Below, one piece after another: positions 1 to 25,232 of a stretch of 64,000 bases of DNA. The position numbers were made by a program, and so were the translations under genes. The stretch spans positions 1,450,588 through 1,514,587 of the forward strand of contig OZ260108.1 of the NCBI GenBank assembly GCA_965284665.1. The letters run 5' to 3'. Numbering within the stretch: the first letter of the stretch is position 1; the number at the start of each line of letters is the position of its first letter. The stretch is from Sphingomonadaceae bacterium. GTDB taxonomy: Bacteria > Pseudomonadota > Alphaproteobacteria > Sphingomonadales > Sphingomonadaceae. The notes below the pieces were generated by a model. It made no database searches. It was not told the DNA's origin and saw nothing but the letters and a program-made list of their open reading frames with translations.

Positions 1-2187
1 GTGGTTGACGGGATTCTCAAGACCAACACCGCCCAGCTGAACCAGGTCCAGGGCACGCTGCGCCAGGTCGAAATCCTGAAAGGTCCGCAGGGCGCGCTCT
101 ATGGCCGCAACGCTGCGGCCGGCGCGATCGTGCTGCAGACGCTGAAGCCCAAGGACGTGGTCGAGGGCGGCGCCAAGATCTCTTACGCCAACGAGAACAC
201 CTGGGATGCCTCGGCCTATATCTCGACCCCGCTGGGCGAAAGCGCCGGCCTGGTGGTGAGCGGCAGCTTCCAGCACACCGATGGCTTCTTCCGCAACATC
301 TTCCTCGGCAACAGCAAGACCGTGGATGACAAGGAATCGTTTAACGTCGACGGCCGCATGGTCGTCAAGGCGGGTGACAATACCGAGTTCGACGTGAAGG
401 TCCGTTATGCTGAATTCCACGGCGCCTCGCTGCCGTTCAACGCCGCGTTCCATCTGCCGAACTTCGCGGCGGTGAACCCGGCGTTCTACCAGGATGTCGA
501 CGCCCACGAGTTTCGCTTCTACAACAATATCCGCGCCACCAATGACCAGAAGAGCTTCGACGCCTCGATCAAGGTCGAGCACAACTTCGAGAGCATGAAG
601 CTGGTCGCCTGGGCGCTCTATTCGGACACCAATCAGGACCTGGTGGCCGATGGCACCTCGGCTGACTTTGCCCGTTACATCAGCGCGGCGCAGCCGGCGG
701 GAGCGGCAACGGTGGCATCGTGCTTCGCCACCACCGCAGCCAACACCGGATATCCGGTCAACCCGCCGGGCGGCATCGGCGCGATCCCGGTGCCGTTCAT
801 CTTCGCCCCGGCCAATGGCTCGACCTTCGGGCCATACAGCAACACCACTTGCGACGGCATCCAGTACCAGCTGCGCAACCAAAAGGACTTCAGTGCCGAA
901 GTGCGGCTGGTTTCGACCGGCGACGGTCCGGTCTCGTGGCAGCTGGGCGCCTATTACCTCAATATCGATCGCCAGACCGGCGTTAGCCTGAGCGGTGATA
1001 CGGGGGCAGGGGTGATCAAGAACCTCTACAATGGCCCGACCAGCGCGAACCCGACCTCGCTGCTGCTGGCTGACCAGTTCGACACCAATGTCTATGCCGC
1101 CTTCGGCTCGCTGGAATTCAAGCCGAACGACCAGTTCAAGGCCGGTCTGGCATTGCGCTATGATATCGAGGACCGTGCTTCCAGCTCGCTGGTGCCGACC
1201 GCGACCGATCCGTTCACCGGCGGCCCGATCAACCCCGGTCAGGCCTTTGGTCCGCTGACGCCGAAGTCCGCATCCTACAAGCAGCTCCAGCCGAAGATCA
1301 CGCTGAGCTACACCCCGTCGAGCGAGCTCAACATCTATGCCAACTGGGGTATCGGCTTCAAATCGGGCGGGTTCAACAACCAGGGTTCGTCGGCGATCAT
1401 CAACGGCAACTTCAACAACGGCGTCACCCCCGGCACGATCAACGCCAACGTCCGGATCAACGACGATTACCGCAAGGAAAAGTCGAGCGCGTTTGAAGCC
1501 GGGATTAAGGGCACGCTGCTCGACAATCGCATCACCTTCGATCTGGCAGGCTATTACACCCGCATCACCGACATGCAGTTCTTCGAATTCTTCGTCGGCA
1601 GCTTTGGCCTGCTGCGTGTGGTTTCGAACATCGACACGGTCGACGTGAAGGGTGCGGAAATCAACCTGACCGCCAAGGTGGTTGATGGGCTGAAGCTGTT
1701 CGGCTCGTTCAATGTGACCGACAGCGAGATCAAGAAGAACTCGTCGCGGCCCTACACCGTGGGCAACAAGTCGCCCTATACGGCTGACTGGACGCTCAAC
1801 GTCGGGGCGGACATCAAGGTGCCGGTCACCGACAGTCTGCGGATCACCGGCCGCGCCGATTACCGCCTGACCGGTCCGACCTGGTTCCACACCGTGCAGG
1901 ATCAGGAACGCCCGACCCTGTTCAGCGGCCTGCTGCCGATCTCGGCGCTGGCGCTGCCGCCCGTGGTCGGCAACGCCCGCTACGACGTGGCCCAGCGTGA
2001 CAAGTTCGGCGTGTTCAATGCCCGCCTGGGCCTTGAAACCGATCGCTACCACCTGGTCGCTTTTGCTGAGAACCTGTTCAACAAGAAGTACATCGCCGAA
2101 GCGATCCCCGCGATCGAGTTTGGCGGCTCGTTCATCTCGCCGGGCGGGCGCCGCCTGATCGGTGTCGAAGCGGGCATGAAGTTCTAA
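1..2187 (+). CDS. TonB-dependent receptor (5' end outside window)
   Basis: Plug motif VEILKGPQGALYGRNAAAGAI at the ORF start, beta-barrel-type repeats, C-terminal GMKF; the ORF begins mid-plug at base 1. Confidence 0.93.
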   Translation: MVDGILKTNTAQLNQVQGTLRQVEILKGPQGALYGRNAAAGAIVLQTLKPKDVVEGGAKISYANENTWDASAYISTPLGESAGLVVSGSFQHTDGFFRNIFLGNSKTVDDKESFNVDGRMVVKAGDNTEFDVKVRYAEFHGASLPFNAAFHLPNFAAVNPAFYQDVDAHEFRFYNNIRATNDQKSFDASIKVEHNFESMKLVAWALYSDTNQDLVADGTSADFARYISAAQPAGAATVASCFATTAANTGYPVNPPGGIGAIPVPFIFAPANGSTFGPYSNTTCDGIQYQLRNQKDFSAEVRLVSTGDGPVSWQLGAYYLNIDRQTGVSLSGDTGAGVIKNLYNGPTSANPTSLLLADQFDTNVYAAFGSLEFKPNDQFKAGLALRYDIEDRASSSLVPTATDPFTGGPINPGQAFGPLTPKSASYKQLQPKITLSYTPSSELNIYANWGIGFKSGGFNNQGSSAIINGNFNNGVTPGTINANVRINDDYRKEKSSAFEAGIKGTLLDNRITFDLAGYYTRITDMQFFEFFVGSFGLLRVVSNIDTVDVKGAEINLTAKVVDGLKLFGSFNVTDSEIKKNSSRPYTVGNKSPYTADWTLNVGADIKVPVTDSLRITGRADYRLTGPTWFHTVQDQERPTLFSGLLPISALALPPVVGNARYDVAQRDKFGVFNARLGLETDRYHLVAFAENLFNKKYIAEAIPAIEFGGSFISPGGRRLIGVEAGMKF

Positions 2188-2197
2188 GACCGCGATT

Positions 2198-2227
2198 GGC
2201 GGCCAGTGGCAGCAGCCATTGGCCGCC
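2198..2227 (+). terminator. Stem-loop after the TonB receptor (terminator-like, no U-tract)
   Basis: GGCGGCCAGTGG-cagcag-CCATTGGCCGCC, 12-bp stem with one G-U pair. Confidence 0.5.
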
Positions 2228-2252
2228 TGTCGATCATAAGGCGAAAGACCGG

Positions 2253-2267
2253 GTTGCATATTGCAAC
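2253..2267. promoter_or_regulatory. Palindromic operator candidate upstream of the RND operon
   Basis: GTTGCA-TAT-TGCAAC perfect inverted repeat ~10 bp before ATG 2278. Confidence 0.5.
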
Positions 2268-2277
2268 TCAATCAGCC

Positions 2278-3339
2278 ATGTCGCGGCAAATGCCTAACAA
2301 ATCGCGCCTTTTCATAGCTCCGCTGATTGCCCTGCTGGCGGCTTGCGGGGCTGAGCAAGTGCCAGAAAAGCCGGCGGATGTTGCCCTGCGGGTCAGTGTC
2401 GCCGTGGTTGGCCAGGAACTGGGCTCACCTTCGATCGAAGCTGCTGGTACCGCTGCGCTGCGCAAGGAAATCCCGCTGGGATTCACCACGCCCGGCCAAG
2501 TCGCGCGGATTTTGGTGCAGGAGGGGGACCGGGTCAGGCGCGGGCAACTGCTGGCCGTGCTCGATACCACCAGCGTTGGGGCCTCGCTTGAGGCGGCCGA
2601 TGCCGAACGCGATCGCGCCGCAGCTGAACTGGGGCGCCTCAAGCAACTCTATGCCCAGGGCTGGATCACCAAGGCGCGGCTTGAAGCGGCCGAGGCAGCC
2701 GCGCGCAGCGCCACCGCCAACCTTGCCGCGCGCCGGTTCTCGCTCGACACCGCGCGCGTTGTGGCCCCGGCCGATGGCATCATCCTGACCCGCGGCGCTG
2801 AGCCGGGGCAGATCGTCGATGCCGGTTCTCCGATTATCACGCTGGGCGATGCCGGCAGCGGTTTTGTCCTGCGCGTGCTGCTGGCAGATCGCGATGCCGT
2901 GCGCCTGCGGGCTGGGATCCCGGCCGAAGTACGCTTTGATGCCCTGCCGGGCGCTGTGCTGGCGGGGCAAGTGATCGAGGTTGGCGGGCGCTCCGATCGC
3001 GGCAGCGGTGCCTTTACCGCCGAAATCGCGCTAGCTCCCGACCAGCGGCTGCGTTCGGGCCTGGTCGGCCGTGCCAGAATCCTCGCCCCGGCAGCCGGTG
3101 GATCAACCCGTCTGGTCATCCCGCCGACCGCGATTTTTGCGGCCCGGGCCGATGAAGGCTTTGTCTTCGTCGTCGATGCCCAGCGCCGGGTGAAGGCCCG
3201 CAGCGTGACGCTTGGCCAGTTGTCCCCCGCGGGGGCGGAGATCCTCTCCGGCCTCAACCGGGGAGAGACCGTGGTCACTTCCGCGCTTGACCGGCTCCGC
3301 GACGGGGCGAAGGTCGACCCGGTTGGTACCCAGCCCTGA
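2278..3339 (+). CDS. RND efflux periplasmic adaptor (membrane fusion) lipoprotein
   Basis: Lipobox LAAC; lipoyl-like G-x-V-x-x-I-x-V-x-EGD-x-V-x-x-GQLLA; coiled coil; adjacent to the AcrB-family gene. Start 2278 or 2290. Confidence 0.92.
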   Translation: MSRQMPNKSRLFIAPLIALLAACGAEQVPEKPADVALRVSVAVVGQELGSPSIEAAGTAALRKEIPLGFTTPGQVARILVQEGDRVRRGQLLAVLDTTSVGASLEAADAERDRAAAELGRLKQLYAQGWITKARLEAAEAAARSATANLAARRFSLDTARVVAPADGIILTRGAEPGQIVDAGSPIITLGDAGSGFVLRVLLADRDAVRLRAGIPAEVRFDALPGAVLAGQVIEVGGRSDRGSGAFTAEIALAPDQRLRSGLVGRARILAPAAGGSTRLVIPPTAIFAARADEGFVFVVDAQRRVKARSVTLGQLSPAGAEILSGLNRGETVVTSALDRLRDGAKVDPVGTQP

Positions 3340-6300
3340 TGGGTTTGGTCTCGATCGCCGTCCGCCGCTGGCAGGTGACCTTTGTCACCTTCCTGTTGCT
3401 GGCGCTGCTCGGCTACAACGCGTTTCGTCAGATTCCCCGCGCGGTCGATCCCTATTTCCCGATCCCCGCAACGCTCGCCATTGTCACCCTGCCAGGGGCT
3501 GATGCGGCCGAGATCGAGGAGACAGTAGCCAAGCCGATCGAGCGCGCGTTGCAAGGGCTCGACAATGTGCGCGACATTCGCTCGACCTCCAGCGACGGTG
3601 TCGCCAACGTCCAGGTTTCGTTCGATTACGGCACCGATGCCGAACAGGCGCTCGACCGTACCGTGCGCGAGGTCAATGCACTGCGCCCGCAATTGCCCAG
3701 CGGCATAACGCGGTTCGACATCCGCCGGCCGCGCACCACCGAGGCGGCGATTTCCCAGATTGCGCTGGTGAGCGAGACCGCTTCATGGCGGCGGATGGAA
3801 AAGTATTCCGAGGATCTGCGCGACCGGCTCTCCGTATTGCGCGGGGTGCGCAACACACAGCTTTACGGGCTGGCTTCGCCCGAAGTGCGCGTGGCGCTTG
3901 ATCCGGCGCGACTGGCCGAGCGCAAACTGGCGCCAGCGGCGGTAGCCAATGCGATATCGCAGGGCGGGGCGGACGTGCCGGCCGGGGCGGTGGCATCGGG
4001 CAATCGCCGCTTCAATGTCCAGGCGGGCGGCGCTTTTCGCAGTCTGGAAGCGATCCGCGCGATCCCGCTGCGCGGCGGCGACGGGCAATTGCTGACCGTA
4101 GGCGACGTGGCCGCGGTCGATTGGGCGGAGGCTGAACGCCAGCACATCACCCGGCTGAACGGCCAGCGCGCGGTCTTCATCGGCGTGCGGCAAAAGGATG
4201 CGACCGATACCCTGGCACTGCGGGATTCGCTGCGCCAGGTGAAGGAGAAGTTTGCCGGCCAGTTGCCGCCCGACATCAAGCTGGTCACCGTCTTCGACCA
4301 GAGCAATGATATCGAGCGCAAACTCAATCAGCTCGCCAAGGATTTCATGATTGCCCTGGCGCTGGTGCTGATCACGCTTTTGCCGCTGGGACCGCGCGCT
4401 TCGCTGGTGGTGATGCTGTCGATCCCAACCTCATTGGCAATCGGCCTTACCGGGCTTGATATTCTGGGCTTCTCGCTCAACCAGCTGACCGTTTCGGGCT
4501 TCATCGTCGCGCTGGGTCTGCTGGTCGACGATTCGATCGTGGTGACCGAGAATATCGAACGCCACATCCGCATGGGTGAAGACCGGATCACGGCCGCGAT
4601 TCAGGGCACCAAGGAAATCACCATGGCGGTGATGGGCTCCACCGGGGTGCTGATCTTTGCCTTCCTGCCGCTGGCCAACCTGCCTGAGACCGCCGGCGAT
4701 TTTACCCGCAGCCTGCCGATGGCGGTGCTGTTAACGGTGGGTGCCTCATTGCTGGTCTCGCTGACGCTGGTCCCCTTTGCGGCGAGCCGGATCCTGCCGC
4801 CGCATGAAACCCACGGCGGCAACCGGTTCCTGCGCTGGGTGACCGAGCGGATCGAGCACTGGTACCGTCCCGCCTTGCATTGGAGCCTGGCCAACCCGCA
4901 CAAGACCGTATGGGGCGCGATGGCGGCCTGTGTGCTGATGTTCTTCACGATCCCGTGGATCGGCTTCAGCCTGTTCCCCAAGGCCGATGTGCCCTATTTC
5001 CTGGTCAGGATCGAAGCCCCGGAAGGTGCCAGCATCGTCGCCACTGACAAGGCGGTGCGCGATATTGCGGCGATCATGGCGAAGAAGCCCGAAGTGCTGG
5101 ACGTGATGGAGAACACCGGGCGTTCCAACCCGCAGATTTACTACAATGCGATCCCGCGTGAGTCCGATGCCCGGTTCGGGGAACTGTTCGTCACGCTGAA
5201 AACCTTTTCGCCCGAGGATACGCCCGCGCTGGTCGAGAAGCTGCGCCAGGAGCTGGAGAAGTATCCCGCAGCGCGCGTTACTGTTGAGCAGTTCGAGCAG
5301 GGGCCACCAGTCGATGCGCCAATCGCGATCCGGATCAGCGGGCCCGAGCTTGACGTGCTGAAGCGGCTTTCGGCCGAATTTGCCCAAACTGTCCGCAAGA
5401 CCGAGGGCACCCGCGACGTGGTCGATCCGCTGGCGATTGACCGGATCGATCTCGATCTGTCGGTCGATCCCGCCAAGGCAGGTCTGCTTAACGTGGCACC
5501 CGATGCTGTCCGCCGGACCCTGCGGCTGGCAATCTCGGGCGAACGAGCCAGCAACCTGCGCGATGCAGAGGGCGATTCCTATCCGGTGGTAGTGCGGATG
5601 CCATTCGAGCAGGAAGTGCCGATCACGGTGCTTGATCAGATCTATGTCAGCTCGCTGTCAGGTGCAGCGATTCCCTTGGCGCAATTGACTGTGCCAAAGC
5701 TGCAATCGGTCCCGTCTTCGATCAACCGATACAAGTTCGAACGTTCAGTGACGGTAACCTCATACGTTCAACAGGGCTTCCTCGCCTCAAAGGTCAACGA
5801 GGACGCCGTAGCGCGGGTTCGCAAGATACCGTTGCCGCCGGGCTATTCGATCAGTATCGGCGGCCAGGCCGAGATATCCGAGCGCAACCGCAGCGGGATC
5901 GGCGGGATCGCCCTGCTGGCGGTGTTCGGGATCCTGTCGGTGCTTGTGCTGGAATTCGGTCGCTTTCGCGAGGTCACCGTGGTGGCTGGCGTGGTTCCGC
6001 TGGGCCTGTTCGGCGGGCTGTGGGCGCTGATCCTGACCGGCAACTCGATGTCCTATCTGGCCACCATCGGGTTCATTGCGTTGATCGGAATCGAGATCAA
6101 GAATTCGATCCTGCTGGTCGATTTCACCACCCAGCTACGCCAGCAGGGGATGGAACTGATGGAGGCGATCGAGCGCGCAGGCGAAATCCGCTTTCTGCCG
6201 GTGCTGCTGACTTCGGTCACGGCGATCGGCGGGCTGCTTCCGCTGGCGCTGTCAGGCTCGCCGCTCTATGCGCCGCTGGCCTGGGTGATCATCGGCGGGC

Positions 6301-6386
6301 TGGTCTCTTCGACCCTGCTCAGCCGGATCGTCATTCCGGCGATGTACCTGCTACTGGTACGCGGCGCACCGCCACCGGAGAGCTGA
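3339..6386 (+). CDS. RND efflux permease, AcrB/AcrD/AcrF family
   Basis: 1015 aa; motifs GLLVDDSIVVTENI, KNSILLVDF, RFLPVLLTS; two TM bundles with large periplasmic loops. Confidence 0.95.
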   Translation: MGLVSIAVRRWQVTFVTFLLLALLGYNAFRQIPRAVDPYFPIPATLAIVTLPGADAAEIEETVAKPIERALQGLDNVRDIRSTSSDGVANVQVSFDYGTDAEQALDRTVREVNALRPQLPSGITRFDIRRPRTTEAAISQIALVSETASWRRMEKYSEDLRDRLSVLRGVRNTQLYGLASPEVRVALDPARLAERKLAPAAVANAISQGGADVPAGAVASGNRRFNVQAGGAFRSLEAIRAIPLRGGDGQLLTVGDVAAVDWAEAERQHITRLNGQRAVFIGVRQKDATDTLALRDSLRQVKEKFAGQLPPDIKLVTVFDQSNDIERKLNQLAKDFMIALALVLITLLPLGPRASLVVMLSIPTSLAIGLTGLDILGFSLNQLTVSGFIVALGLLVDDSIVVTENIERHIRMGEDRITAAIQGTKEITMAVMGSTGVLIFAFLPLANLPETAGDFTRSLPMAVLLTVGASLLVSLTLVPFAASRILPPHETHGGNRFLRWVTERIEHWYRPALHWSLANPHKTVWGAMAACVLMFFTIPWIGFSLFPKADVPYFLVRIEAPEGASIVATDKAVRDIAAIMAKKPEVLDVMENTGRSNPQIYYNAIPRESDARFGELFVTLKTFSPEDTPALVEKLRQELEKYPAARVTVEQFEQGPPVDAPIAIRISGPELDVLKRLSAEFAQTVRKTEGTRDVVDPLAIDRIDLDLSVDPAKAGLLNVAPDAVRRTLRLAISGERASNLRDAEGDSYPVVVRMPFEQEVPITVLDQIYVSSLSGAAIPLAQLTVPKLQSVPSSINRYKFERSVTVTSYVQQGFLASKVNEDAVARVRKIPLPPGYSISIGGQAEISERNRSGIGGIALLAVFGILSVLVLEFGRFREVTVVAGVVPLGLFGGLWALILTGNSMSYLATIGFIALIGIEIKNSILLVDFTTQLRQQGMELMEAIERAGEIRFLPVLLTSVTAIGGLLPLALSGSPLYAPLAWVIIGGLVSSTLLSRIVIPAMYLLLVRGAPPPES

Positions 6387-6429: not shown

Positions 6430-6458
6430 TTGACTTTGAAGTTGTCCGGACAAATCAT
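6430..6458 (+). promoter_or_regulatory. sigma70-like promoter with palindromic GntR/HutC-type operator TTGTCCGGACAA (6442-6453)
   Basis: TTGACT at 6430-6435; perfect 12-bp palindrome between the -35 and the putative -10; same core recurs at 12167 and 24132. Confidence 0.65.
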
Positions 6459-6505
6459 CCGTGCCAAGGCGGTCGCCACAAGCCCGTCAGGAGCACTCCG
6501 TTCGC

Positions 6506-7318
6506 ATGTTTGCCGCCAATTCCTTCCTGTTCGTGCCTGGCTCGCGGCCTGACCGGTTCGCGAAGGCGCATGGCAGCGGGGCAGGGCTGACGGTGATCGA
6601 CCTGGAAGATGCGGTTCCCGCTGAAGAGAAGGCTGCCGCGCGCAACAACGCGCTCGCGCAGGTCGCCAGCGGCGAGGCGGGCTGGGCGATCCGCATCAAT
6701 GGCCTGGCGACTGCCGCCGGAATTGCCGATCTGGCCGCACTGATCGAGGCCGAACATCTGCCGCCGTTCCTGTTCGTGCCGATGGTCGAAAGCGCGGTGG
6801 AGATCGAGTTCATTGCCCGCGCGCTGGGTGAACCTTGCCCCGAGCTGATCCCGCTGATCGAAACGCCCAAGGGCCTGCGCCAGGCGGTTGCCATCGCTTC
6901 CGCGCCCATGGTCGGCGGCGTGATGTTCGGCGGCGGAGATTTTTCAGGCGAGCTGGGCGTGGCACTGGCCTGGGAGCCGCTGCTCGCCGCGCGCCAGGCA
7001 CTGGTCCTGGCCTGCGCCGAGGCGCGGGTGCCGGCGATCGACGTGCCGTGGATCAGTTTGGATGACGAAACCGGCCTTGCCGACGAGTGCGCCAAGGCCA
7101 AGGCACTGGGCTTTGCTGCCAAGGCTGCGATCCACCCCAGCCAGGTGGCGGCAATCGAAGCCGCCTTTACCCCGACCGCGGCAGAAGTTGCCGAGGCCGA
7201 GGCGGCGCTCGCTGCCTATGAGGCGGCCGGGGGCAAGGTAATCCGTTTCAAGGGCAAGATGCTGGAAGCACCGCTGGTCAAGCGTTACCAGGCCGTGCTC
7301 AGCCGGAAAGGGAACTGA
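6506..7318 (+). CDS. CitE/HpcH-family CoA-ester C-C lyase (citramalyl/malyl-CoA lyase-like, RipC-like)
   Basis: LFVPGSRPDRF, IDLEDAV, IRING, LIET, FGGGD, KAAIHPSQV motifs; RBS AGGAG before ATG 6506. Confidence 0.9.
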   Translation: MFAANSFLFVPGSRPDRFAKAHGSGAGLTVIDLEDAVPAEEKAAARNNALAQVASGEAGWAIRINGLATAAGIADLAALIEAEHLPPFLFVPMVESAVEIEFIARALGEPCPELIPLIETPKGLRQAVAIASAPMVGGVMFGGGDFSGELGVALAWEPLLAARQALVLACAEARVPAIDVPWISLDDETGLADECAKAKALGFAAKAAIHPSQVAAIEAAFTPTAAEVAEAEAALAAYEAAGGKVIRFKGKMLEAPLVKRYQAVLSRKGN

Positions 7319-7320
7319 CA

Positions 7321-7830: not shown

Positions 7831-7853
7831 GGCGACGACTAAGGAGAATACCG

Positions 7854-13484: not shown

Positions 13485-13500
13485 GAAGGTGGGTAGGGCG

Positions 13501-17609: not shown

Positions 17610-17611
17610 AA

Positions 17612-18409: not shown

Positions 18410-19275
18410 TGCGAGAGGAACGGATGGACCTGCCCGGCGGCGCCAGGATGGCGCTGTCGGTCGTGGTCAATGTCGAGGAAGGCAGCGAACAGACCATCGC
18501 CCGCGGCGACAAGGGGATGGAGCCAGTCGACGAGCTGGGCATCTTCATCAAGGCCCCGATCCGCAACTATGCGAACGAGAGCAATTACCTCTACGGGATC
18601 AAGGCGGGCGCGCCGCGCGTGGTCAAGCTGCTGAAAGCTTTCGACATCATGGCGAGCTGGACGGTGGCGGCACTGTCGCTCGAGAACCATCCGGAGATTG
18701 CCGAGGCCATCGTCGAGCTGGGGCACGAGCCGGTCAGCCACGGCTGGCGCTGGGTCCATCAGTTCCGTCTGAACGAGGAGCAGGAGCGCGAGTTCATCCG
18801 CAAGGCCGTGGCGAGCATCGAAAAGACCTGTGGCGTGCGCCCCTATGGCTGGCTGTCGCGCTATATGCTGACCGACAACACCCGCCGCCTGCTGATCGAG
18901 GAGGGCTTCTCCTACCACATGGACGATTACAGCGGCGACGTGCCGTTCTGGGATCGCGAGACGGTAACCGGCAAGCCGATGGTGATTGTGCCCTACCAGC
19001 TCGACAACAATGACATGAAGATGTGGACCGATCCGGCCATGACGCCTGAGCAGTGGTTGGCCTATGCCAAGCGCAACTTCGACCAGGTCTATCGCGAAGG
19101 CGTGGAAGGCAATCCCAAGATGATGAGCCTGGGGCTACACCTGCGGATAATCGGCCGGCCGGGACGGATCTGGGCGCTGGAGGAGTTCTTCAAGCACGTC
19201 CGCCAGCACGACGGGGTCTGGGTGACGACGCGCAAGGCAATTGCCGATCACTATGCCCAGACGGTGCCGGCATGA
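18409..19275 (+). CDS. Polysaccharide deacetylase fold, PuuE/allantoinase-like amidohydrolase
   Basis: VVVNVEEG, HGWRW, GWLSR, GLHLRIIGRPGR match the PuuE-type pattern. Confidence 0.85.
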   Translation: MREERMDLPGGARMALSVVVNVEEGSEQTIARGDKGMEPVDELGIFIKAPIRNYANESNYLYGIKAGAPRVVKLLKAFDIMASWTVAALSLENHPEIAEAIVELGHEPVSHGWRWVHQFRLNEEQEREFIRKAVASIEKTCGVRPYGWLSRYMLTDNTRRLLIEEGFSYHMDDYSGDVPFWDRETVTGKPMVIVPYQLDNNDMKMWTDPAMTPEQWLAYAKRNFDQVYREGVEGNPKMMSLGLHLRIIGRPGRIWALEEFFKHVRQHDGVWVTTRKAIADHYAQTVPA

Positions 19276-20024
19276 CGCTGCGCCTCACCACTGGCCAACA
19301 CGTCGCCCGGCTGTTCATCGACCGGGCGGACAAGCGCAACGCCTTCAACCAGGCGATGTGGGAGCAGCTGCCCGAACTGGTGTTGCAGGCCATGGCCGAT
19401 CCGGCGGTGCGGGTGCTGACGATCGAATCTGCCCATCCCGGCGTGTTCTGCGCCGGGGCGGATATTGCCGAGCTGCTCGCCAACAAGGACGATGCCCAGT
19501 GGCGATCGGCCAATCAGGCCGCAATCAACCGCGCCCAGCACGTGCTGGCCCGCGCGGATAAGCCAGTGATCGCCTATATCGATGGCGATTGCGTCGGCGG
19601 TGGCTGTGGGATTGCCCTGGCGGCCGACATCCGCGTTGCGACGCCGCGCGCGCGGCTGGGGATCACCCCGGCCAAGCTGGGGCTGGTCTATCCGCTGCAT
19701 GACACCAAGCTGCTGGTCGATCTGGTCGGTCCGGGGCATGCCAAGCGCATGCTCTATACCGGGATGCTGCTGGATGCGCATGAAGCGCTGCGGATCGGGC
19801 TGGTCGATGAGATCGCCGATAGCCCCGGCCATCTCGAAGACGTGATCGCCGCCAATTCGCTCCATTCGACCAGCGGCATGAAGCGGTTCGTGCGCCGCGT
19901 GCTCGATGGCCAGGCCGATGACGATGCGGAGACGCTGGAAGTGTTCGCGCAGGCCTTCACCGGGCCGGATTTCCTCGAAGGGACCAGCGCCTTCGTTGCC
20001 AAGCGCAAGCCGGAGTTCAAGTGA
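19272..20024 (+). CDS. Crotonase (enoyl-CoA hydratase/isomerase) superfamily, lacking the canonical Glu pair
   Basis: KRNAF, FCAGADI, GGGCGIALAAD, TPAKLGLVY, FVAKRKPEFK. Confidence 0.9.
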   Translation: MTLRLTTGQHVARLFIDRADKRNAFNQAMWEQLPELVLQAMADPAVRVLTIESAHPGVFCAGADIAELLANKDDAQWRSANQAAINRAQHVLARADKPVIAYIDGDCVGGGCGIALAADIRVATPRARLGITPAKLGLVYPLHDTKLLVDLVGPGHAKRMLYTGMLLDAHEALRIGLVDEIADSPGHLEDVIAANSLHSTSGMKRFVRRVLDGQADDDAETLEVFAQAFTGPDFLEGTSAFVAKRKPEFK

Positions 20025-20920
20025 TGGCCATTCCCCATGGAACGATCATGGGCGGGCTCTCAGTGGTGCCGGACGTGTCCGCTGCGCTCGCCGATTACCA
20101 GGGCGTGTTGCAGCTCGATCTGGTGCACGAAGGCCCGCTGCCGGCTGACCTCGCGGCGAGCTGGGGCTGTCCGGCCAGCGCCGGCGCGCGCCATGCCGTG
20201 TTGCGGCCCAAAAGCGGCAACCCGTGCTGGTTCCGGCTGGTCGAACAGCCCGACCATCCCGAGTTCAAGCCGACCACCACCTTTGGCTGGGGCGCCTTCG
20301 AGTGCACGGTCGAGGACGTGTTCGGCTGGCCCGACCGGCTTCAGGGCAGTGGCTTCACCATCGTGGGTGAACCGCGCGAGCTTCCGGGGATGGATGCCTT
20401 CATCCCAATGCAGGTGCTCGGCACCGGGCGCGAGATGGTTTACCTGAACCAGGTCTTCAACGACATGGCGAACGTCGATCTGCCGCGCGCGCAGTCGATC
20501 ACCGACCGGATCTTCATCGTCATTCTCGGCACGCCGAGCCGGGCGGAATCTTGCCGCTGGTACCAGGAGCGGCTGGGGCTGGAGCCGGTCGATACCTTTG
20601 AACTGCCCTATGCCATGATCAATGACGCCTTCGGTCTGCCGGCGGACTATATCTCCGCGCTGACCATGGTTCAGGCCGGGCGGCTGCCGATTGTCGAGGT
20701 GGACGATTACCCTGAGCAGGCGCGGCCGCGTGCCCGCCATGCCGGGATGCTGCCGCCAGGCAATGCGCTGGTGACGCTGGCGATGCGCGATCTGGCTGCC
20801 TGCCAGGTGGACTGGATTGCGCCCCCGGTGGCCCGCGACGGCGCGCTTTATGAAGGCCGCCGTGCGGGCACCTGCCTGGGCTATGCCGGGGAACTGATCG
20901 AACTGGTTGAGGTGGGTTGA
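20021..20920 (+). CDS. VOC/glyoxalase-like two-domain protein
   Basis: Repeated beta-alpha-beta-beta-beta units, SCRWYQERLG, terminal ELIELVE; translationally coupled. Confidence 0.6.
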   Translation: MMAIPHGTIMGGLSVVPDVSAALADYQGVLQLDLVHEGPLPADLAASWGCPASAGARHAVLRPKSGNPCWFRLVEQPDHPEFKPTTTFGWGAFECTVEDVFGWPDRLQGSGFTIVGEPRELPGMDAFIPMQVLGTGREMVYLNQVFNDMANVDLPRAQSITDRIFIVILGTPSRAESCRWYQERLGLEPVDTFELPYAMINDAFGLPADYISALTMVQAGRLPIVEVDDYPEQARPRARHAGMLPPGNALVTLAMRDLAACQVDWIAPPVARDGALYEGRRAGTCLGYAGELIELVEVG

Positions 20921-21228
20921 TGGCGCTCTATTGCATTCACGCGATTGATGGACCGGATGGTGCGGAAATCCGCCTGCGGCTGATCGGGGCGCACCTTGCC
21001 CATGTCGAGGCGCATATTGATCGCTACTTCGTCGCCGGACCGCTCAAGAATGCAGAGGGGCAGACCATCGGTTCGATGCTGGTGGTCGAGGCGGCGGATG
21101 AGGCCGATGCCCGCGCATTCCTCGATGCGGACCCCTATGCCGGGGCGGGGTTGTGGAGCCAGATCCACGTCGCCGCCTTTGCCGCCGTGGCGGGCACCAG
21201 CGTGGGTGGGGCGGCCTGGAAGAAGTAG
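20920..21228 (+). CDS. YciI family protein
   Basis: R...HLAHV, AGPL, GSMLVVEA, DPY motif. Confidence 0.88.
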   Translation: MALYCIHAIDGPDGAEIRLRLIGAHLAHVEAHIDRYFVAGPLKNAEGQTIGSMLVVEAADEADARAFLDADPYAGAGLWSQIHVAAFAAVAGTSVGGAAWKK

Positions 21229-23630: not shown

Positions 23631-24089
23631 TTAAGGCGCCGGCTTAACATCCGGCGTGGTGTTGTCCATGTCGCGCCACAGCAGCCAGCCTTTGCCCTTG
23701 CGCTTGTAGATCAGCATCGAGCGGCCGGCGCTCTTGATGGCGGGTTTGCCGGGGAGCTGCGCGGTCATCCAGTACTTGGCAACAAGGATCCCCAGCTTGC
23801 CCTCAATCACGATGTGCTCGGGCTCGAAACGGAAGGCGATGGTTGCGCCCTGATCCTTGAAGCGGCGCAGGTAGGCGATGATCGCATCGGCGCCCTTCGC
23901 GGCCGGGGCCTTGTCGGTCATCAGCCAGGCGTCGTCGGTATAGAGCTTGCGCAGCGCCGCCCAGTCGCCGGCGGAATAGGCCGCGTTCCACAGGTCGCCC
24001 TGCGCGGCAATTTCGGCCTGCTGGTCGCGCGCCAGGGCGGCGGTTGGCAGCAGCGCCAGCGCGAGGGCGCATAACAGAGTTCGGATCAT
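23631..24089 (-). CDS. Secreted NTF2/SnoaL-like (DUF4440/YybH) protein
   Basis: Signal peptide; WNAAYSAGDWAAL..LYTDDA, GRSMLIYKR; RBS AGGAG before ATG 24089. Confidence 0.8.
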   Translation of the reverse strand: MIRTLLCALALALLPTAALARDQQAEIAAQGDLWNAAYSAGDWAALRKLYTDDAWLMTDKAPAAKGADAIIAYLRRFKDQGATIAFRFEPEHIVIEGKLGILVAKYWMTAQLPGKPAIKSAGRSMLIYKRKGKGWLLWRDMDNTTPDVKPAP

Positions 24090-24130
24090 CGCAGCGCTCC
24101 TCAGGGGATCAGACGCGCAGCATTGCAAAG

Positions 24131-24142
24131 ATGTCCGGACAA
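24131..24142. promoter_or_regulatory. Third copy of the operator (ATGTCCGGACAA) in the divergent 24089/24175 promoter
   Basis: 14-bp identity TGTCCGGACAAATC with 6443-6456; preceded by TTGCAA (-35-like). Confidence 0.65.
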
Positions 24143-24174
24143 ATCCATAGTCCTTGGCAGCTGAAGGACCTGTC

Positions 24175-24939
24175 ATGCGCTTTCTAGTGATTGCCGCCGC
24201 CTTGCTGGCAGCTATGCCCGTCGCGGCGGAAACACCGCTGCCCGACGCGCGGATGATTATTGCCGAAGCCGCTGAAGTGGCCGGGGGTGAGGCCTGGCTC
24301 AGCCCGGCCACCCTGCGGCTGGAAGGGCGGGCGGAGTTCTATGCGCCCAATCAGCCCGGCGTCATTCGCCGCGCCGAAAGCTATGTGATGTGGCGGGTGC
24401 TCGATCCGAACCGCACCGCGGCCCACGGGCCAGAAGGTAAGGTGCGGATTACGGCGCGCTCGGGCGGCAAGCTGCTGTTCGATGTCGGCTATGATGGAGA
24501 GACGACGTGGAACGAAAAGGGCGTGGTGCCCAAGGCCGAGGCCGATGCCTATTGGGCCGCCAACTTCGGCTTCGGGATCATCCGCATGGCGCTGAAGCAG
24601 GGCTTCAAGCTGGAGCGCGCGCCGGATCGGACGGTGGATGGCCACGCGCTCGACATGGTGCGGATCGTCGATCCCGGCGGGCAGGCCACGCTGTTCGGGA
24701 TCGACGTCAAGAGCCGCTATATCCGCTACATGGGTTTTGCCACGCCCCGCGGCTGGCACGAGCGGGTCTATGACGATTTCGTGTTCTTCCGCAGCCCGCG
24801 CTGGCTGCAGGCGCGCAGCGTCACGCTGTTCTACAACGGGGTACGGCAGAACACCGTCTATTGGGACAAGGCCGTGGTCGGCCAGCCGATCGATCCCGCC
24901 ACCTTCGCCATGCCCGCCAGCTATGGAGCAAAGCCATGA
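24175..24939 (+). CDS. Secreted hypothetical protein, possibly LolA/lipoprotein-sorting-like fold
   Basis: Signal peptide, AGGEAW motif, beta-rich; fold is an inference. Confidence 0.6.
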   Translation: MRFLVIAAALLAAMPVAAETPLPDARMIIAEAAEVAGGEAWLSPATLRLEGRAEFYAPNQPGVIRRAESYVMWRVLDPNRTAAHGPEGKVRITARSGGKLLFDVGYDGETTWNEKGVVPKAEADAYWAANFGFGIIRMALKQGFKLERAPDRTVDGHALDMVRIVDPGGQATLFGIDVKSRYIRYMGFATPRGWHERVYDDFVFFRSPRWLQARSVTLFYNGVRQNTVYWDKAVVGQPIDPATFAMPASYGAKP

Positions 24940-25232
24940 CCGCCTGGATGATCGTTACTGCAAGGATCCATGACCGCGAGAAGTTCATCACCGGCTATGG
25001 GCCAGCGGCGGCCAAGTTGATCGGCCAGTTCGGGGGCAAGTACATCGTCCGCGCGCCCGGCGCCGAAGTGCTGGAGGGCGAGGGTTGGCCGGGCGCCTCG
25101 GTTGTCATCTCCGAGTGGCCCGACAAGGCCGCGATCATGGCCTTCTGGAACTCGCCCGAATATGCCGAGGTGAAGAAGCTGCGCGAGGGGCTGGCCGATG
25201 TCTCGATCCAGGTGATCGAGCAGCCGGGCTAG
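24936..25232 (+). CDS. DUF1330 family protein
   Basis: FGGKYIVR, EVLEG, VISEWP, FWNSPEYAEVKKLR. Confidence 0.88.
   Translation: MTAWMIVTARIHDREKFITGYGPAAAKLIGQFGGKYIVRAPGAEVLEGEGWPGASVVISEWPDKAAIMAFWNSPEYAEVKKLREGLADVSIQVIEQPG

What the first reader, a model, noticed from the sequence alone, without database searches (positions are those of the whole stretch)
1..25232. About 20-gene GntR-controlled CoA-dependent pathway of unknown substrate (best novel-system candidate)
Seen: a tightly coupled gene run (many ATGA/GTGA overlaps) encoding TonB import, a CitE-like lyase, MaoC hydratase, acyl-CoA dehydrogenase, two family III CoA-transferases, two MmgE/PrpD proteins, a PaaK-like ligase, amidase, PuuE-like hydrolase, SDR, atypical crotonase and several small cofactor-free proteins, with one HutC-type regulator. 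Known: each family is characterised, but I recognise no described pathway with this full combination. Inference: uptake, ring or amide opening with N release, CoA activation, then C-C cleavage of a branched dicarboxylate. Speculative substrates are cyclic imides/lactams (e.g. methylsuccinimide, or maleimides from tetrapyrrole breakdown) or amides of C5-C6 di/tricarboxylates. A biosynthetic role is less likely but possible, given the RND exporter and HapK.
Basis: partly seen in the sequence, partly recalled or inferred. Interest (0 to 1): 0.85.

Follow-up and report, generated by a model that had tools for sequence, protein, structure and literature searches.

The report
Conserved GntR-regulated orphan acid-catabolism gene cluster
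A 16-gene block that keeps the same order in dozens of Sphingomonadales species, and shares one predicted repressor site, most likely breaks down an unidentified nitrogen-containing organic acid; its second half resembles the known itaconate/methylsuccinate pathway and its first half matches no described pathway.

Summary
The conserved core is window 6430-21228: operon A (Ccl-like lyase, Ich-like MaoC hydratase, acyl-CoA dehydrogenase, two family III CoA-transferases), a HutC-type gntR on the minus strand, and operon B (two MmgE/PrpD, PaaK-like ligase, amidase, HapK-like, SDR, PuuE-like hydrolase, crotonase lacking both catalytic Glu, VOC, YCII).

All 15 genes are colinear in 43 of the 49 Sphingomonadales loci that span the block. 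Sub-blocks (PrpD-ligase-amidase; ACAD-CoAT-CoAT-MaoC-lyase) recur in distant Proteobacteria. The RND pump and the S46 peptidase do not belong.

The palindrome TTGTCCGGACAA lies in a promoter-like spacer before operon A, perfect in 58 of 58 loci. It recurs at gntR/PrpD1, and before a satellite set (secreted SnoaL-like protein, secreted 261-aa protein, DUF1330). In other genomes it precedes TonB receptors, TRAP binding proteins and DUF1838.

Operon A maps by family onto the itaconate/methylsuccinate module but fails the equivalog cut-offs. Operon B has no described counterpart in the libraries searched.

Most likely: hydrolytic N release from a cyclic or amide-bearing carboxylate, then CoA-dependent cleavage of a substituted succinate. 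The substrate is unknown. New variant of a known kind.

The parts
1..2187 (+). TonB-dependent receptor (TBDR1), cut at its 5' end by the window edge; membership uncertain
   Evidence: Pfam TonB_dep_Rec_b-barrel + Plug. Conserved upstream of CitE only in close Novosphingobium relatives L003, L008, L016. TonB receptors carry the operator in 17 other loci. Its own upstream region lies outside the window.
2206..6386 (+). HlyD membrane-fusion protein + AcrB/RND pump: NOT part of the system (lineage-specific insertion)
   Evidence: Pfam. RND is found only in L002, L006, L007 and L010, and MFP gave no tblastn hit in any locus. In L003 and L016, TBDR1 abuts CitE.
6430..6458 (+). Promoter-like site of operon A: -35 TTGACT, 17-nt spacer, -10 AATCAT
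   Evidence: Consensus scan. This is a consensus match only; its weight comes from the operator lying inside it.
6442..6453 (.). Operator O1, perfect palindrome TTGTCCGGACAA, in the spacer and -10 of the operon A promoter
   Evidence: A perfect copy lies within 200 nt upstream of CitE in 58 of 58 Sphingomonadales loci, and 11 loci have two copies there (<=1 mismatch).
6506..7318 (+). CitE/HpcH-type acyl-CoA lyase, Ccl-like (the ORF opens at GTG 6461; ATG 6506 has an AGGAG Shine-Dalgarno site)
   Evidence: PF03328. Best NCBIfam hit is RipC/Ccl, E 3e-67, 227 bits, below the cut-off of 375.
7321..7830 (+). MaoC-type (R)-specific enoyl-CoA hydratase, Ich-like
   Evidence: PF01575/PF19315. Best NCBIfam hit is RipB/Ich, E 4e-67, 225 bits, below the cut-off of 340.
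7854..9041 (+). Acyl-CoA dehydrogenase
   Evidence: Three ACAD domains. 63-73% identical to ACADs in MaoC/CoA-transferase/lyase/GntR clusters of Variovorax, Tistrella, Aminobacter and Pseudosulfitobacter.
9038..10249 (+). Family III CoA-transferase 1 (GTGA overlap with the ACAD stop)
   Evidence: PF02515, E 1e-106. An Asp conserved between the two paralogs is taken as the catalytic Asp.
10261..11346 (+). Family III CoA-transferase 2 (32% identical to CoAT1; always paired with it)
   Evidence: PF02515, E 4e-104. The same conserved Asp is present. The pair is kept in Tistrella, Variovorax and metagenome loci.
11353..12096 (-). HutC-subfamily GntR regulator (247 aa), convergent with operon A and divergent from operon B
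   Evidence: PF00392 + PF07702 UTRA. Start ATG 12096.
12166..12177 (.). Operator O2, TTGTCCGGACAC (1 mismatch), in codons 9-13 of PrpD1 and 70 nt from the gntR start
   Evidence: A site with <=2 mismatches is present in 28 of 69 Sphingomonadales loci against a 3% background, and is absent in most Erythrobacter-type loci. In distant taxa it lies upstream of PrpD1.
12141..13373 (+). MmgE/PrpD protein 1, with the canonical Asp/His/His/Lys/Lys/His set
   Evidence: PF03972 + PF19305. Residue-by-residue alignments to IDS epimerase and B. subtilis IRG1-like protein.
13489..14778 (+). MmgE/PrpD protein 2, divergent active site (His->Arg, Lys->Leu and His->Gly at three conserved positions); ATGA overlap with the ligase
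14775..16133 (+). PaaK-like adenylate-forming ligase of a narrow, highly conserved family
   Evidence: TIGR02155, 161 bits, below the cut-off of 646. PDB PaaK E 6e-44 and 2-hydroxyisobutyryl-CoA synthetase 3e-31. The 80 Sphingomonadales loci kept are 79-98% identical. Only 124 hits reach E<=1e-30 among 1.84 billion representatives.
16133..17290 (+). Short (385 aa) amidase-signature amidase; Lys / cis-Ser / Ser triad present
   Evidence: PF01425. Aligns full length to malonamidase E2. Motifs GVKSNI, GGSSGGS and GTDTMGSVRIPA.
17304..17609 (+). HapK/EthD-like small protein
   Evidence: PF11639, E 1e-11, and PF07110.
17612..18409 (+). Classical SDR oxidoreductase, overlapping the start of the PuuE-like gene
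   Evidence: PF13561/PF00106; junction.
18406..19275 (+). PuuE-like cyclic amidohydrolase (polysaccharide deacetylase fold)
   Evidence: PDB PuuE allantoinase 3cl6, E 3e-67. TIGR03212, 248 bits, below the cut-off of 425.
19272..20024 (+). Crotonase-fold protein lacking both catalytic glutamates (not a canonical hydratase)
   Evidence: PF00378. Sequence GGGCGIALAADI and GITPAKLG. ATGA overlap with the PuuE-like gene.
20024..20920 (+). Two-module VOC (glyoxalase-fold) protein
   Evidence: PF00903. No PDB sequence match. AlphaFold2 model pLDDT 93.6; best folds are two-module glyoxalase I, GLOD4 and PcpA, TM about 0.6, 10-14% identity.
20920..21228 (+). YCII-like small protein (present in about half of the related loci)
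   Evidence: PF03795. Found in 34 of 80 loci.
23631..24089 (-). Secreted SnoaL/DUF4440 (NTF2-fold) protein, predicted regulon member
   Evidence: Pfam. Signal peptide and ATG 24089. Operator-linked in 33 loci.
24131..24142 (.). Operator O3, ATGTCCGGACAA (1 mismatch), in the divergent SnoaL / hyp261 spacer
   Evidence: The same position is occupied in many loci.
24175..24939 (+). Secreted 261-aa protein with no Pfam family (hyp261), predicted regulon member
   Evidence: Operator-linked in 29 loci. The single-sequence structure model was unusable.
24936..25232 (+). DUF1330 small protein, ATGA-coupled to hyp261
   Evidence: PF07045. Start. Operator-linked on its own in 8 loci.

Best explanation
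This is one co-regulated catabolic system, chromosomally conserved in Sphingomonadales, for a small nitrogen-containing organic acid. The window comes from a freshwater-type Novosphingobium. SHOWN: there is a 16-gene core in two operons around a HutC-type repressor gene, and a 12-bp palindrome, TTGTCCGGACAA. The palindrome lies in the promoter-like region of operon A, at the gntR/operon B junction, and before a satellite pair of secreted proteins plus DUF1330. In other genomes the same site precedes TonB receptors, TRAP binding proteins, DUF1838 and a DUF2269-like membrane protein. INFERRED mechanism: the substrate, an anionic carboxylate, enters through a TonB receptor or, in other lineages, a TRAP system. 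In the upper pathway (operon B) the SDR oxidises a ring CH-OH to give an imide- or ureide-type ring. The PuuE-like enzyme opens that ring. The Ser-cisSer-Lys amidase releases ammonia from the resulting half-amide, leaving a 2,3-substituted succinate. PrpD1, which has the canonical active site, epimerises, dehydrates or decarboxylates this product; PrpD2 is a divergent partner. The PaaK-like ligase makes a CoA thioester. The Glu-less crotonase, the VOC protein and the small HapK, YCII and DUF1330 proteins isomerise, epimerise or decarboxylate CoA esters. In the lower pathway (operon A) the paired family III CoA-transferases place CoA on the correct carboxyl. The ACAD introduces the double bond, the MaoC hydratase adds water, and the Ccl-like lyase cleaves the product to acetyl-CoA and a 2-oxo acid (pyruvate if the branch is a methyl group). 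This mirrors the Ict/Mcd/Ich/Ccl route for itaconate and methylsuccinate. The inducer is probably an intermediate of the lower module, because the same operator also precedes clusters that have only the lower module.
For: Gene families and catalytic motifs. Translational coupling. Synteny: the ligase has 387 relatives in GTDB species genomes, and the best 80 are all Sphingomonadales-type loci with an identical gene order (one is labelled a Synechococcus MAG); all 15 genes are colinear in 43 of 49 loci that span the block. Deep conservation of sub-blocks at 49-60% ligase identity, in loci with G+C from 42 to 72%: PrpD-ligase-amidase is almost always together, and is often joined by ACAD-CoAT-CoAT-MaoC-lyase, PDA, SDR, HapK, ECH, VOC and DUF1330. 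In Tistrella mobilis pTM2 the set is split into two loci, each with its own GntR and operator. Operator: perfect in 58 of 58 loci upstream of CitE; 90 perfect copies against about 0.1 expected; it lies inside the -35/-10 spacer in the window; it fits the HutC GT-N4-AC architecture (consensus quoted in bioRxiv 10.1101/2025.08.21.671446). Lower module: the best curated families are RipC/Ccl and RipB/Ich. The ACAD is 63% identical to the ACAD of a Pseudosulfitobacter cluster with the five-family itaconate/methylsuccinate composition, and that cluster carries the same operator. Functions of Ict, Mcd, Msi, Ich and Ccl come from PMC12290011. Precedent for SDR, then PuuE-type imidase, then amidase: HxnW/HxnM/HxnN (PMC9304392). 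PuuE acts on a small cyclic imide (PMC3084791). TRAP transporters in distant loci indicate a carboxylate substrate.
Against: There are no expression or biochemical data. The only RNA-labelled runs are metagenomic contigs 85-95% alike that cover gntR as evenly as the operons, so they show nothing about co-transcription. No gene reaches an equivalog cut-off, so every specific activity is an inference. In about 40 of 69 Sphingomonadales loci no operator is seen at gntR/PrpD1, so control of operon B by the same repressor is not general. The PuuE-like gene, SDR and HapK are missing from many distant loci that keep PrpD-ligase-amidase; there a CN-hydrolase, a FAD oxidase and an aldehyde dehydrogenase appear instead. 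Ring opening by an imidase therefore cannot be the universal first step. The order of steps, and which carboxylate the ligase activates, are guesses.
Confidence: 0.55

Rival explanations
1. It is just the already described itaconate / methylsuccinate / mesaconate utilisation pathway, and the additional genes are dispensable accessories. The set would then map fully onto known biology.
For: All six P. aeruginosa gene families (Ich, ACAD/Mcd, VOC, MmgE/PrpD, Ict, Ccl) have counterparts here (PMC12290011). The same operator precedes a five-family cluster in Pseudosulfitobacter.
Against: The Ccl and Ich equivalog cut-offs are not met: 227 against 375 bits and 225 against 340 bits. The window PrpDs are only 28% identical to the PrpD of the five-family cluster and are not next to the ACAD. 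The published survey found methylsuccinate isomerase in only 2 Sphingomonadales species, whereas this block is in at least 80. The described clusters use LysR regulators. Nine further genes, including the amidase and the PuuE-like hydrolase, are as strictly conserved as the lower module, and the ligase is the best conserved gene of all. PrpD-ligase-amidase also occurs without the lower module beside it.
Confidence: 0.12
2. Two independent pathways are merely neighbours. Operon A is a branched-dicarboxylate module. Operon B is an unrelated amide or heterocycle pathway with its own logic.
For: The two operons are separated by a gene on the other strand. In Tistrella the genes lie in two loci 450 kb apart. 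Variovorax and Aminobacter have the lower module alone. Many Erythrobacter-type loci lack an operator at operon B.
Against: The adjacency and order are unchanged in 43 of 49 species loci across at least nine genera. In distant taxa the genes are shuffled yet stay together. In Tistrella both loci carry a HutC-type regulator and the same operator, and the family members are divided across the loci: a PrpD is in each, PDA and YciI sit with the ACAD and CoATs.
Confidence: 0.12
3. It is a biosynthetic or detoxification/export cluster. A PaaK-like ligase with a GatA-like amidase would make an amide, HapK would act as in prodigiosin clusters, and the RND pump would export the product.
For: HapK-like protein, PaaK-like ligases of benzoxazole pathways among distant PDB hits, and an RND pump upstream.
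Against: The RND/MFP pair is a lineage-specific insertion. There is no carrier protein, PKS/NRPS or tailoring set. Lyase, hydratase, ACAD and CoA-transferases are catabolic, and their best family matches are catabolic. Uptake systems (TonB receptors, TRAP) are operator-linked. HutC-type local repressors typically control catabolic operons (general knowledge).
Confidence: 0.04

Closest known systems
Itaconate / methylsuccinate degradation cluster of P. aeruginosa (PA0878-PA0883) and C. necator: Ict, Ich, Ccl, Mcd, Msi, plus a VOC 'Rdo' (PMC12290011, PMC9875883, PMC13491972)
   Same: The same protein families are present: family III CoA-transferase, MaoC hydratase, CitE-like lyase, ACAD, MmgE/PrpD and a two-module VOC. 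The best curated family hits of the lyase and hydratase are RipC/Ccl and RipB/Ich. The expected chemistry is the same: substituted succinyl-CoA to enoyl-CoA to 3-hydroxy-3-carboxyacyl-CoA to acetyl-CoA plus a 2-oxo acid.
   Different: Scores fall below the equivalog cut-offs. There are two paired CoA-transferases instead of one. The PrpD proteins are only 28% identical to a PrpD from a cluster with the five-family composition (not itself shown to be Msi) and are not next to the ACAD. The regulator is a HutC-type GntR with its own operator, not a LysR ItcR. Nine further conserved genes (a second PrpD, ligase, amidase, HapK, SDR, PuuE-like, Glu-less crotonase, VOC, YCII) have no role in that pathway.
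Cyclic-imide route: SDR HxnW, imidase HxnM and amidase HxnN of Aspergillus nidulans nicotinate catabolism (PMC9304392); bacterial imidase plus half-amidase (from my own knowledge: Ogawa and Shimizu, Blastobacter)
   Same: An SDR, a PuuE/HpPgdA-type cyclic amidohydrolase and an amidase-signature amidase are encoded together. The SDR and hydrolase genes overlap. The expected product is a dicarboxylate plus ammonia.
   Different: There are no ring hydroxylases or ene-reductase here. The hydrolase is nearer to PuuE allantoinase (E 3e-67) than to the HpPgdA/imidase branch (E 3e-19). The products feed a CoA-dependent pathway. The imidase is absent from many distant versions of the cluster.
PuuE allantoinase (PDB 3cl6; TIGR03212)
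   Same: Full-length similarity and the same fold family, which acts on small cyclic imide/ureide rings.
   Different: 248 bits against a cut-off of 425. No other purine-catabolism genes are nearby.
Benzylsuccinate beta-oxidation (BbsEF heteromeric family III CoA-transferase, BbsG ACAD, BbsH, BbsCD, BbsAB). This is recalled from memory: a lead, not a test.
   Same: Two adjacent, paralogous family III CoA-transferase genes followed or preceded by an ACAD acting on a 2-substituted succinate. An SDR and a crotonase are in the same system.
   Different: There is no thiolase; cleavage would be by a CitE-type lyase after MaoC hydration. The setting is aerobic and nitrogen-releasing.
HutC-subfamily GntR repressors (NagR/DasR dre sites; consensus NyGTMTAKACNy)
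   Same: GntR HTH plus UTRA domains. A palindromic operator with a GT-N4-AC core overlaps a promoter. The regulator is autoregulated from a divergent site.
   Different: The core is GTCCGGAC, not GTMTAKAC. The effector is unknown. This regulator-operator pair has not been described for any catabolic cluster in the library searched.

Membership tests
Itaconate/methylsuccinate degradation cluster (Ict-Ich-Ccl-Mcd-Msi) | (S)-citramalyl-CoA lyase equivalog (NCBIfam NF038242 RipC_Ccl, cut-off 375 bits) | tested here: not met
   It is the best hit, but scores only 227 bits.
Itaconate/methylsuccinate degradation cluster (Ict-Ich-Ccl-Mcd-Msi) | Itaconyl-CoA hydratase equivalog (NF038241 RipB_Ich, cut-off 340 bits) | tested here: not met
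   It is the best hit, but scores only 225 bits.
Itaconate/methylsuccinate degradation cluster (Ict-Ich-Ccl-Mcd-Msi) | Methylsuccinate isomerase (MmgE/PrpD) encoded next to the methylsuccinyl-CoA dehydrogenase | tested here: not met
   The PrpD genes lie in the other operon. They are 28% identical to the PrpD of a five-family cluster. The published HMM and context survey lists only 2 Sphingomonadales species.
Itaconate/methylsuccinate degradation cluster (Ict-Ich-Ccl-Mcd-Msi) | ACAD of the methylsuccinyl-C4-CoA dehydrogenase type | tested here: inconclusive
   63% identity to the ACAD that sits beside a PrpD in the Pseudosulfitobacter five-family cluster. No characterised Mcd sequence or curated model was available.
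Itaconate/methylsuccinate degradation cluster (Ict-Ich-Ccl-Mcd-Msi) | Growth on, and enzyme activity with, itaconate or methylsuccinate | not testable with these tools
   Needs cultures or enzymes.
Cyclic-imide catabolism (imidase + half-amidase) | PuuE/HpPgdA-type cyclic amidohydrolase | tested here: met
   PF01522; PuuE 3cl6 E 3e-67, HpPgdA 3qbu E 3e-19. This is family level only.
Cyclic-imide catabolism (imidase + half-amidase) | Amidase-signature enzyme with an intact Lys / cis-Ser / Ser triad in the same operon | tested here: met
   Motifs GVKSNI, GGSSGGS and GTDTMGSVRIPA; aligns full length to malonamidase E2.
Cyclic-imide catabolism (imidase + half-amidase) | Hydrolysis of a cyclic imide to a half-amide and then to a dicarboxylate | not testable with these tools
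   Needs an enzyme assay.
PuuE allantoinase | TIGR03212 equivalog score of at least 424.6 bits | tested here: not met
   248.1 bits.
Phenylacetate-CoA ligase PaaK | TIGR02155 equivalog score of at least 646 bits; paaABCDE neighbours | tested here: not met
   160.8 bits; about 30% identity to annotated PaaK genes; no paa oxygenase genes in the window.
Canonical enoyl-CoA hydratase (crotonase) | Two catalytic glutamates (GGG-x-E and P-E motifs; positions recalled from rat ECH) | tested here: not met
   GGGCG and TPAKLG stand in their place.
HutC-subfamily GntR regulator | N-terminal GntR winged helix plus C-terminal UTRA domain | tested here: met
   PF00392 E 4.5e-21 and PF07702 E 4.3e-19.
HutC-subfamily GntR regulator | Palindromic operator with a GT-N4-AC core at regulated promoters | tested here: met
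   TTGTCCGGACAA at three window sites and 90 perfect copies in related loci. Binding itself was not tested.
MmgE/PrpD family | Conserved carboxylate-binding and catalytic residues (Asp, His, His, Lys, Lys, His) | tested here: met
   Met for PrpD1. PrpD2 has three of these positions replaced.

The most novel reading that the evidence does not exclude
Operon B encodes an undescribed upper pathway that mineralises cyclic imide or lactam carboxylates that are abundant in sunlit waters. Examples are monopyrrolic oxidation products of chlorophyll, bilins and haem (methyl-vinyl or methyl-ethyl maleimide, hematinic acid, BOX-type ylidene-acetamides). Amidase and ligase would give an acetyl-CoA side chain. 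Crotonase, VOC and the small HapK, YCII and DUF1330 proteins would rearrange it. SDR and imidase would open the ring. The two PrpD proteins would set the two stereocentres of the resulting 2,3-disubstituted succinate. Operon A would then cleave it. The regulator-operator pair would define a Proteobacteria-wide 'substituted succinate' regulon. No bacterial pathway for these compounds turned up in the literature searched.
Probability: 0.1. Interest if true: 0.85.

Novelty: new variant of a known kind. Interest (0 to 1): 0.58.

Why it matters
The block is one of the most rigidly conserved accessory gene clusters seen in these aquatic Sphingomonadales loci. Its ligase is 79-98% identical across the 80 kept loci, which carry at least nine genus labels. 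Yet none of its genes reaches a curated functional assignment.

If the model holds, it adds a nitrogen-releasing feeder route to branched-dicarboxylate metabolism. That area currently draws interest because of itaconate. It would also assign work to orphan families: divergent MmgE/PrpD proteins, a Glu-less crotonase, HapK, YCII, DUF1330, DUF1838 and a family-less secreted protein.

The predicted regulator-operator pair makes the question directly testable. The 12-bp operator can be used to read out the regulon and to screen for the inducer, which would identify the substrate.

Tried and rejected
(1) RNA evidence. Only metagenomic 'RNA-Seq' contigs 85-95% alike were found. They cover gntR and both operons evenly, and one contig spans CoAT2-gntR-PrpD1, so DNA carry-over cannot be excluded. 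Inconclusive.

(2) Literature. Searches for the gene combination, for cyclic-imide or half-amidase pathways, for bacterial maleimide or hematinic-acid catabolism, and for MmgE together with sphingomonad genera found no description of this cluster.

(3) Operator in the literature. The exact string occurs as 'box2' of M. smegmatis MscA (PMC11711680), but that paper does not state the protein's family. The operator of the nearest curated regulator family (Rv0792c/MoyR) is different. Neither supports the assignment.

(4) Structure of the 261-aa secreted protein. The single-sequence model has pLDDT 45 and is unusable.

(5) VOC fold search. It confirms a two-module VOC, but at TM about 0.6 and 10-14% identity it does not separate dioxygenase from isomerase or epimerase. 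An H-E-H-E type metal site is only my reading of the invariant columns.

(6) Riboswitches and RNA genes. None in the cluster.

(7) Candidate pathways considered and set aside for lack of the required enzymes: phenylacetate (no PaaABCDE), purine/allantoin (no other ureide genes), aerobic nicotinate, picolinate and isonicotinate routes (no molybdenum hydroxylases or ring oxygenases), carnitine (no Cai-specific set), and DMSP/acrylate (no sulfur-handling steps).

(8) RND pump and S46 peptidase as members. Rejected on synteny.

Full report
**What is in the window.**
- On the plus strand: a TonB-dependent receptor cut by the window edge (1-2187), an HlyD fusion protein (2206-3339), an AcrB-type RND pump (3339-6386), a CitE/HpcH lyase (ORF 6461-7318), a MaoC hydratase (7321-7830), an acyl-CoA dehydrogenase (7854-9041), and two family III CoA-transferases (9038-10249 and 10261-11346).
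- Further on the plus strand: two MmgE/PrpD proteins (12141-13373 and 13489-14778), a PaaK-like ligase (14775-16133), an amidase (16133-17290), a HapK/EthD-like protein (17304-17609), an SDR (17612-18409), a PuuE-like polysaccharide-deacetylase-fold protein (18406-19275), a crotonase (19272-20024), a two-module VOC protein (20024-20920) and a YCII protein (20920-21228).
- The plus-strand ORF at 11350-12144 has no family. The real gene there is on the minus strand: a GntR HTH + UTRA (HutC-type) regulator, 11353-12096.
- The run is therefore two transcription units: operon A (lyase to CoAT2) and operon B (PrpD1 to YCII). The regulator is convergent with A and divergent from B.
- Within each operon the genes are joined by ATGA/GTGA-type overlaps or gaps of at most 23 nt. 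The exception is a 115-nt PrpD1-PrpD2 spacer that holds a REP-like hairpin pair.
- Downstream lie a minus-strand S46 peptidase (21250-23382), a secreted SnoaL/DUF4440 protein (23631-24089, minus strand), a secreted 261-aa protein without any Pfam family (24175-24939), and a DUF1330 protein (24936-25232) that is ATGA-coupled to it.
- Beyond 25.2 kb the genes are unrelated: an MFS transporter, a sugar locus, chemotaxis genes and a tRNA-Phe.

**Is the block real?** The ligase was used as an anchor. It has 387 relatives among one-genome-per-species GTDB contigs.
- The 80 best loci carry Sphingomonadales-type blocks (one is labelled a Synechococcus MAG). Novosphingobium is at 95-98%, which is evidently the source genus. 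The others include Sphingopyxis, Erythrobacter, Sphingorhabdus, Sandarakinorhabdus, Blastomonas, Altererythrobacter, Parasphingopyxis and Pacificimonas.
- tblastn of all window proteins against these loci shows one invariant order and strand pattern from the lyase to the VOC.
- Of 49 loci long enough to span the block, 43 have all 15 genes colinear. The other six miss one gene at my thresholds. YCII is present in 34 of 80 loci.
- TBDR1 is conserved only in the closest Novosphingobium relatives, RND only in L002, L006, L007 and L010, and S46 only in the closest relatives; MFP gave no hit in any locus. In L003 and L016, TBDR1 abuts the lyase gene, so the pump is an insertion.
- The ligase family is narrow. 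Against 1.84 billion cluster representatives only 124 proteins reach E<=1e-30. The full-length neighbours are at 60, 57 and 42% identity, then at the roughly 30-35% level of ordinary PaaK.

**Deep conservation.** An alignment of those distant ligases was used to fetch metagenome loci. I also fetched annotated plasmid records.
- At 49-60% ligase identity, in DNA with G+C from 42 to 72%, the neighbours are shuffled but stay the same families. A PrpD gene lies directly before the ligase and, in most loci, an amidase directly after it.
- These loci often also carry ACAD-CoAT1-CoAT2-MaoC-lyase, and variably the PuuE-like gene, SDR, HapK, crotonase, VOC and DUF1330.
- In Tistrella mobilis pTM2 the set is divided over two loci. 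One holds GntR, an acetyl-CoA hydrolase/transferase, PrpD, ligase and amidase. The other holds a UTRA regulator, YciI, polysaccharide deacetylase, a TRAP transporter, PrpD, ACAD, CoAT and CoAT.
- Extra recurrent families in the distant loci are TRAP transporters, a CN-hydrolase, a FAD_binding_4 oxidase, an aldehyde dehydrogenase and an aconitase-like protein.
- The lower module also exists alone, in Variovorax and Aminobacter. In Pseudosulfitobacter pSMR1-4 it forms a five-family set: TRAP, CaiB-type transferase, MaoC, MmgE/PrpD, ACAD, GntR and CoA ester lyase.

**The regulator's predicted operator.** Reading the two intergenic regions showed the same palindrome.
- TTGTCCGGACAA occurs three times in the 64-kb window with at most 1 mismatch: at 6442, 12166 and 24131.
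- Site 1 lies in the spacer and -10 of a promoter-like TTGACT-17-AATCAT before the lyase gene, the classical position for a repressor. This makes ATG 6506, which has an AGGAG Shine-Dalgarno site, the likely start.
- Site 2 lies 70 nt from the gntR start, inside the first codons of PrpD1.
- Site 3 lies midway in the 85-nt divergent spacer between the SnoaL-like gene and the 261-aa protein gene.
- In the related loci a perfect copy precedes the lyase gene in 58 of 58 cases, and 11 loci have two copies there (<=1 mismatch). In all there are 90 perfect copies in 1.40 Mb against about 0.1 expected from composition.
- Sorting the genes directly downstream of all sites with at most 1 mismatch gives a regulon by family. 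The counts are: lyase operon 65 loci, secreted DUF1838 36, SnoaL-like 33, PrpD1 31, the 261-aa protein 29, gntR 22, a DUF2269-like membrane protein 18, TonB receptors 17, DUF1330 8, acetyl-CoA transferase 6 and TRAP binding protein 6.
- The same site stands before PrpD1, ACAD, MaoC, the PuuE-like gene, crotonase and CoAT genes in distant loci. These include Tistrella, Aminobacter and the Pseudosulfitobacter five-family cluster.
- Its GT-N4-AC core has the architecture of the HutC consensus NyGTMTAKACNy (quoted).
- Caveat: at gntR/PrpD1 a site with at most 2 mismatches is present in only 28 of 69 Sphingomonadales loci (background 3%). It is missing in most Erythrobacter-type loci. Binding itself is untested.

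**What the enzymes look like.**
- Lyase and hydratase: the best curated families are RipC/Ccl (227 bits, cut-off 375) and RipB/Ich (225 bits, cut-off 340), well ahead of citE and mesaconyl-CoA hydratase.
- ACAD: 63-73% identical to the ACADs of the lower-module clusters named above.
- CoA-transferases: both share an invariant Asp that I take to be the catalytic one, and they are 32% identical to each other. They always occur as a pair.
- PrpD1 keeps the canonical Asp/His/His/Lys/Lys/His set. In PrpD2 three of these positions are replaced. Both are only distantly related to solved members (E about 1e-17).
- All characterised MmgE/PrpD enzymes act on a succinate backbone substituted at C2/C3 (PMC12290011).
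- Ligase: it has the PaaK P-loop, and PaaK and 2-hydroxyisobutyryl-CoA synthetase are its nearest solved relatives.
- Amidase: short (385 aa), aligns full length to malonamidase E2, and has the Lys / cis-Ser / Ser triad.
- PuuE-like protein: matches PuuE allantoinase at E 3e-67 but stays below the PuuE cut-off. PuuE-type enzymes open small cyclic imide/ureide rings.
- Crotonase: lacks both catalytic glutamates.
- VOC: models confidently (pLDDT 93.6) as a two-module glyoxalase-fold protein, with no close structural relative.

**Most likely mechanism.** The paragraphs above are shown; the following is inferred.
- A carboxylate-bearing, nitrogen-containing compound is taken up by a TonB receptor or a TRAP system.
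- The SDR creates, and the PuuE-like enzyme opens, an imide- or ureide-type ring.
- The amidase releases ammonia from the half-amide. The closest precedent is HxnW/HxnM/HxnN.
- The product is a substituted succinate. The PrpD proteins process it, and the ligase and the CoA-transferase pair activate it.
- ACAD, MaoC hydratase and the Ccl-like lyase then cleave it to acetyl-CoA and a 2-oxo acid, as in the Ict/Mcd/Ich/Ccl route.
- The Glu-less crotonase, the VOC and the small HapK, YCII and DUF1330 proteins would isomerise, epimerise or decarboxylate CoA esters.
- Lower-module-only clusters carry the same operator, so the inducer is probably an intermediate of the lower module.
- I put 0.55 on this overall picture. 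I put about 0.7 on 'one co-regulated catabolic system with an itaconate-like lower module', and about 0.35-0.4 on a cyclic imide or ureide as the entry compound. Many distant versions replace the imidase, SDR and HapK genes with a CN-hydrolase, an oxidase and an aldehyde dehydrogenase.

**Comparison with what is known.**
- Family for family, operon A plus a PrpD and the VOC reproduce the six-gene P. aeruginosa cluster.
- Membership fails on the tested features. The equivalog cut-offs are not met. The PrpDs are 28% identical to that of a five-family cluster and are not adjacent to the ACAD. The published survey lists only two Sphingomonadales with methylsuccinate isomerase. The described regulators are LysR-type.
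- So this system probably works like that pathway in its second half, but it is not a member of it.
- For operon B, and for the regulator-operator pair, I found no description.
- The paired CoA-transferases followed by an ACAD recall the BbsEF/BbsG steps of benzylsuccinate oxidation. That is a lead from memory and was not tested.

The claim of complete novelty does not: half of the set maps onto a described pathway.
- The upper half, the satellite secreted proteins and the operator are new.
- I rate it a new variant of a known kind, with interest 0.58. It is a well-defined, widely conserved orphan pathway with a ready experimental handle, but the evidence so far points to nothing mechanistically unprecedented.

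Noticed in passing
window 13403-13478 and 23523-23603: A REP-like hairpin, CCCGTGCTTGACACGGG, occurs as inverted pairs about 60 bp apart in two intergenic spacers (PrpD1/PrpD2 and S46/SnoaL). There are 4 exact copies against 0.03 expected. It lengthens the PrpD1-PrpD2 spacer to 115 nt, compared with about 69 nt in relatives.
   Followed up: partly
window 2206-6386: The HlyD + AcrB/RND pair sits between TBDR1 and the lyase gene in the window; RND is also seen before CitE in four close relatives (L002, L006, L007, L010). In L003 and L016 the receptor abuts the lyase gene. This looks like a recent insertion, and no outer-membrane factor gene accompanies it.
   Followed up: partly
PMC11711680 (M. 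smegmatis Ms5630 / MscA): The exact 12-mer TTGTCCGGACAA is reported as the main binding box of the Cu-responsive regulator MscA in mycobacteria. The paper does not name the protein's family, so I could not tell whether this is homology or coincidence.
   Followed up: partly
L081 and L163 (Tistrella mobilis pTM2, 184 kb and 640 kb): The same gene families are split over two loci about 450 kb apart on one megaplasmid. Each locus has its own HutC-type regulator and operator, and the second has a TRAP transporter.
   Followed up: yes
L024 (contig labelled Synechococcus sp. UW140 MAG): This contig carries the complete sphingomonad-type block with 84% ligase identity. It is probably a mis-binned contig.
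   Followed up: no
window 47786-50332: An 848-aa plus-strand ORF with no Pfam family at E<=1e-5.
   Followed up: no
window 27654-34153 and 35933-45444: There are two unrelated neighbouring loci. One is a sugar locus: TonB receptor (minus strand), GH31 glycosidase, LacI regulator and aldo-keto reductase. The other is a chemotaxis / c-di-GMP group: MCP, CheA-like kinase, CheB, a GGDEF-EAL protein and a second MCP. A tRNA-Phe lies at 45482-45557.
   Followed up: no
flanks of L001-L080: Recurrent flank genes that are absent from the window: a Zn-ADH/quinone oxidoreductase (29 loci), an AhpD/CMD-like protein (13 loci) and a TAT-signal flavin amine oxidase (8 loci). The Zn-ADH carries the operator in 4 loci.
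   Followed up: partly
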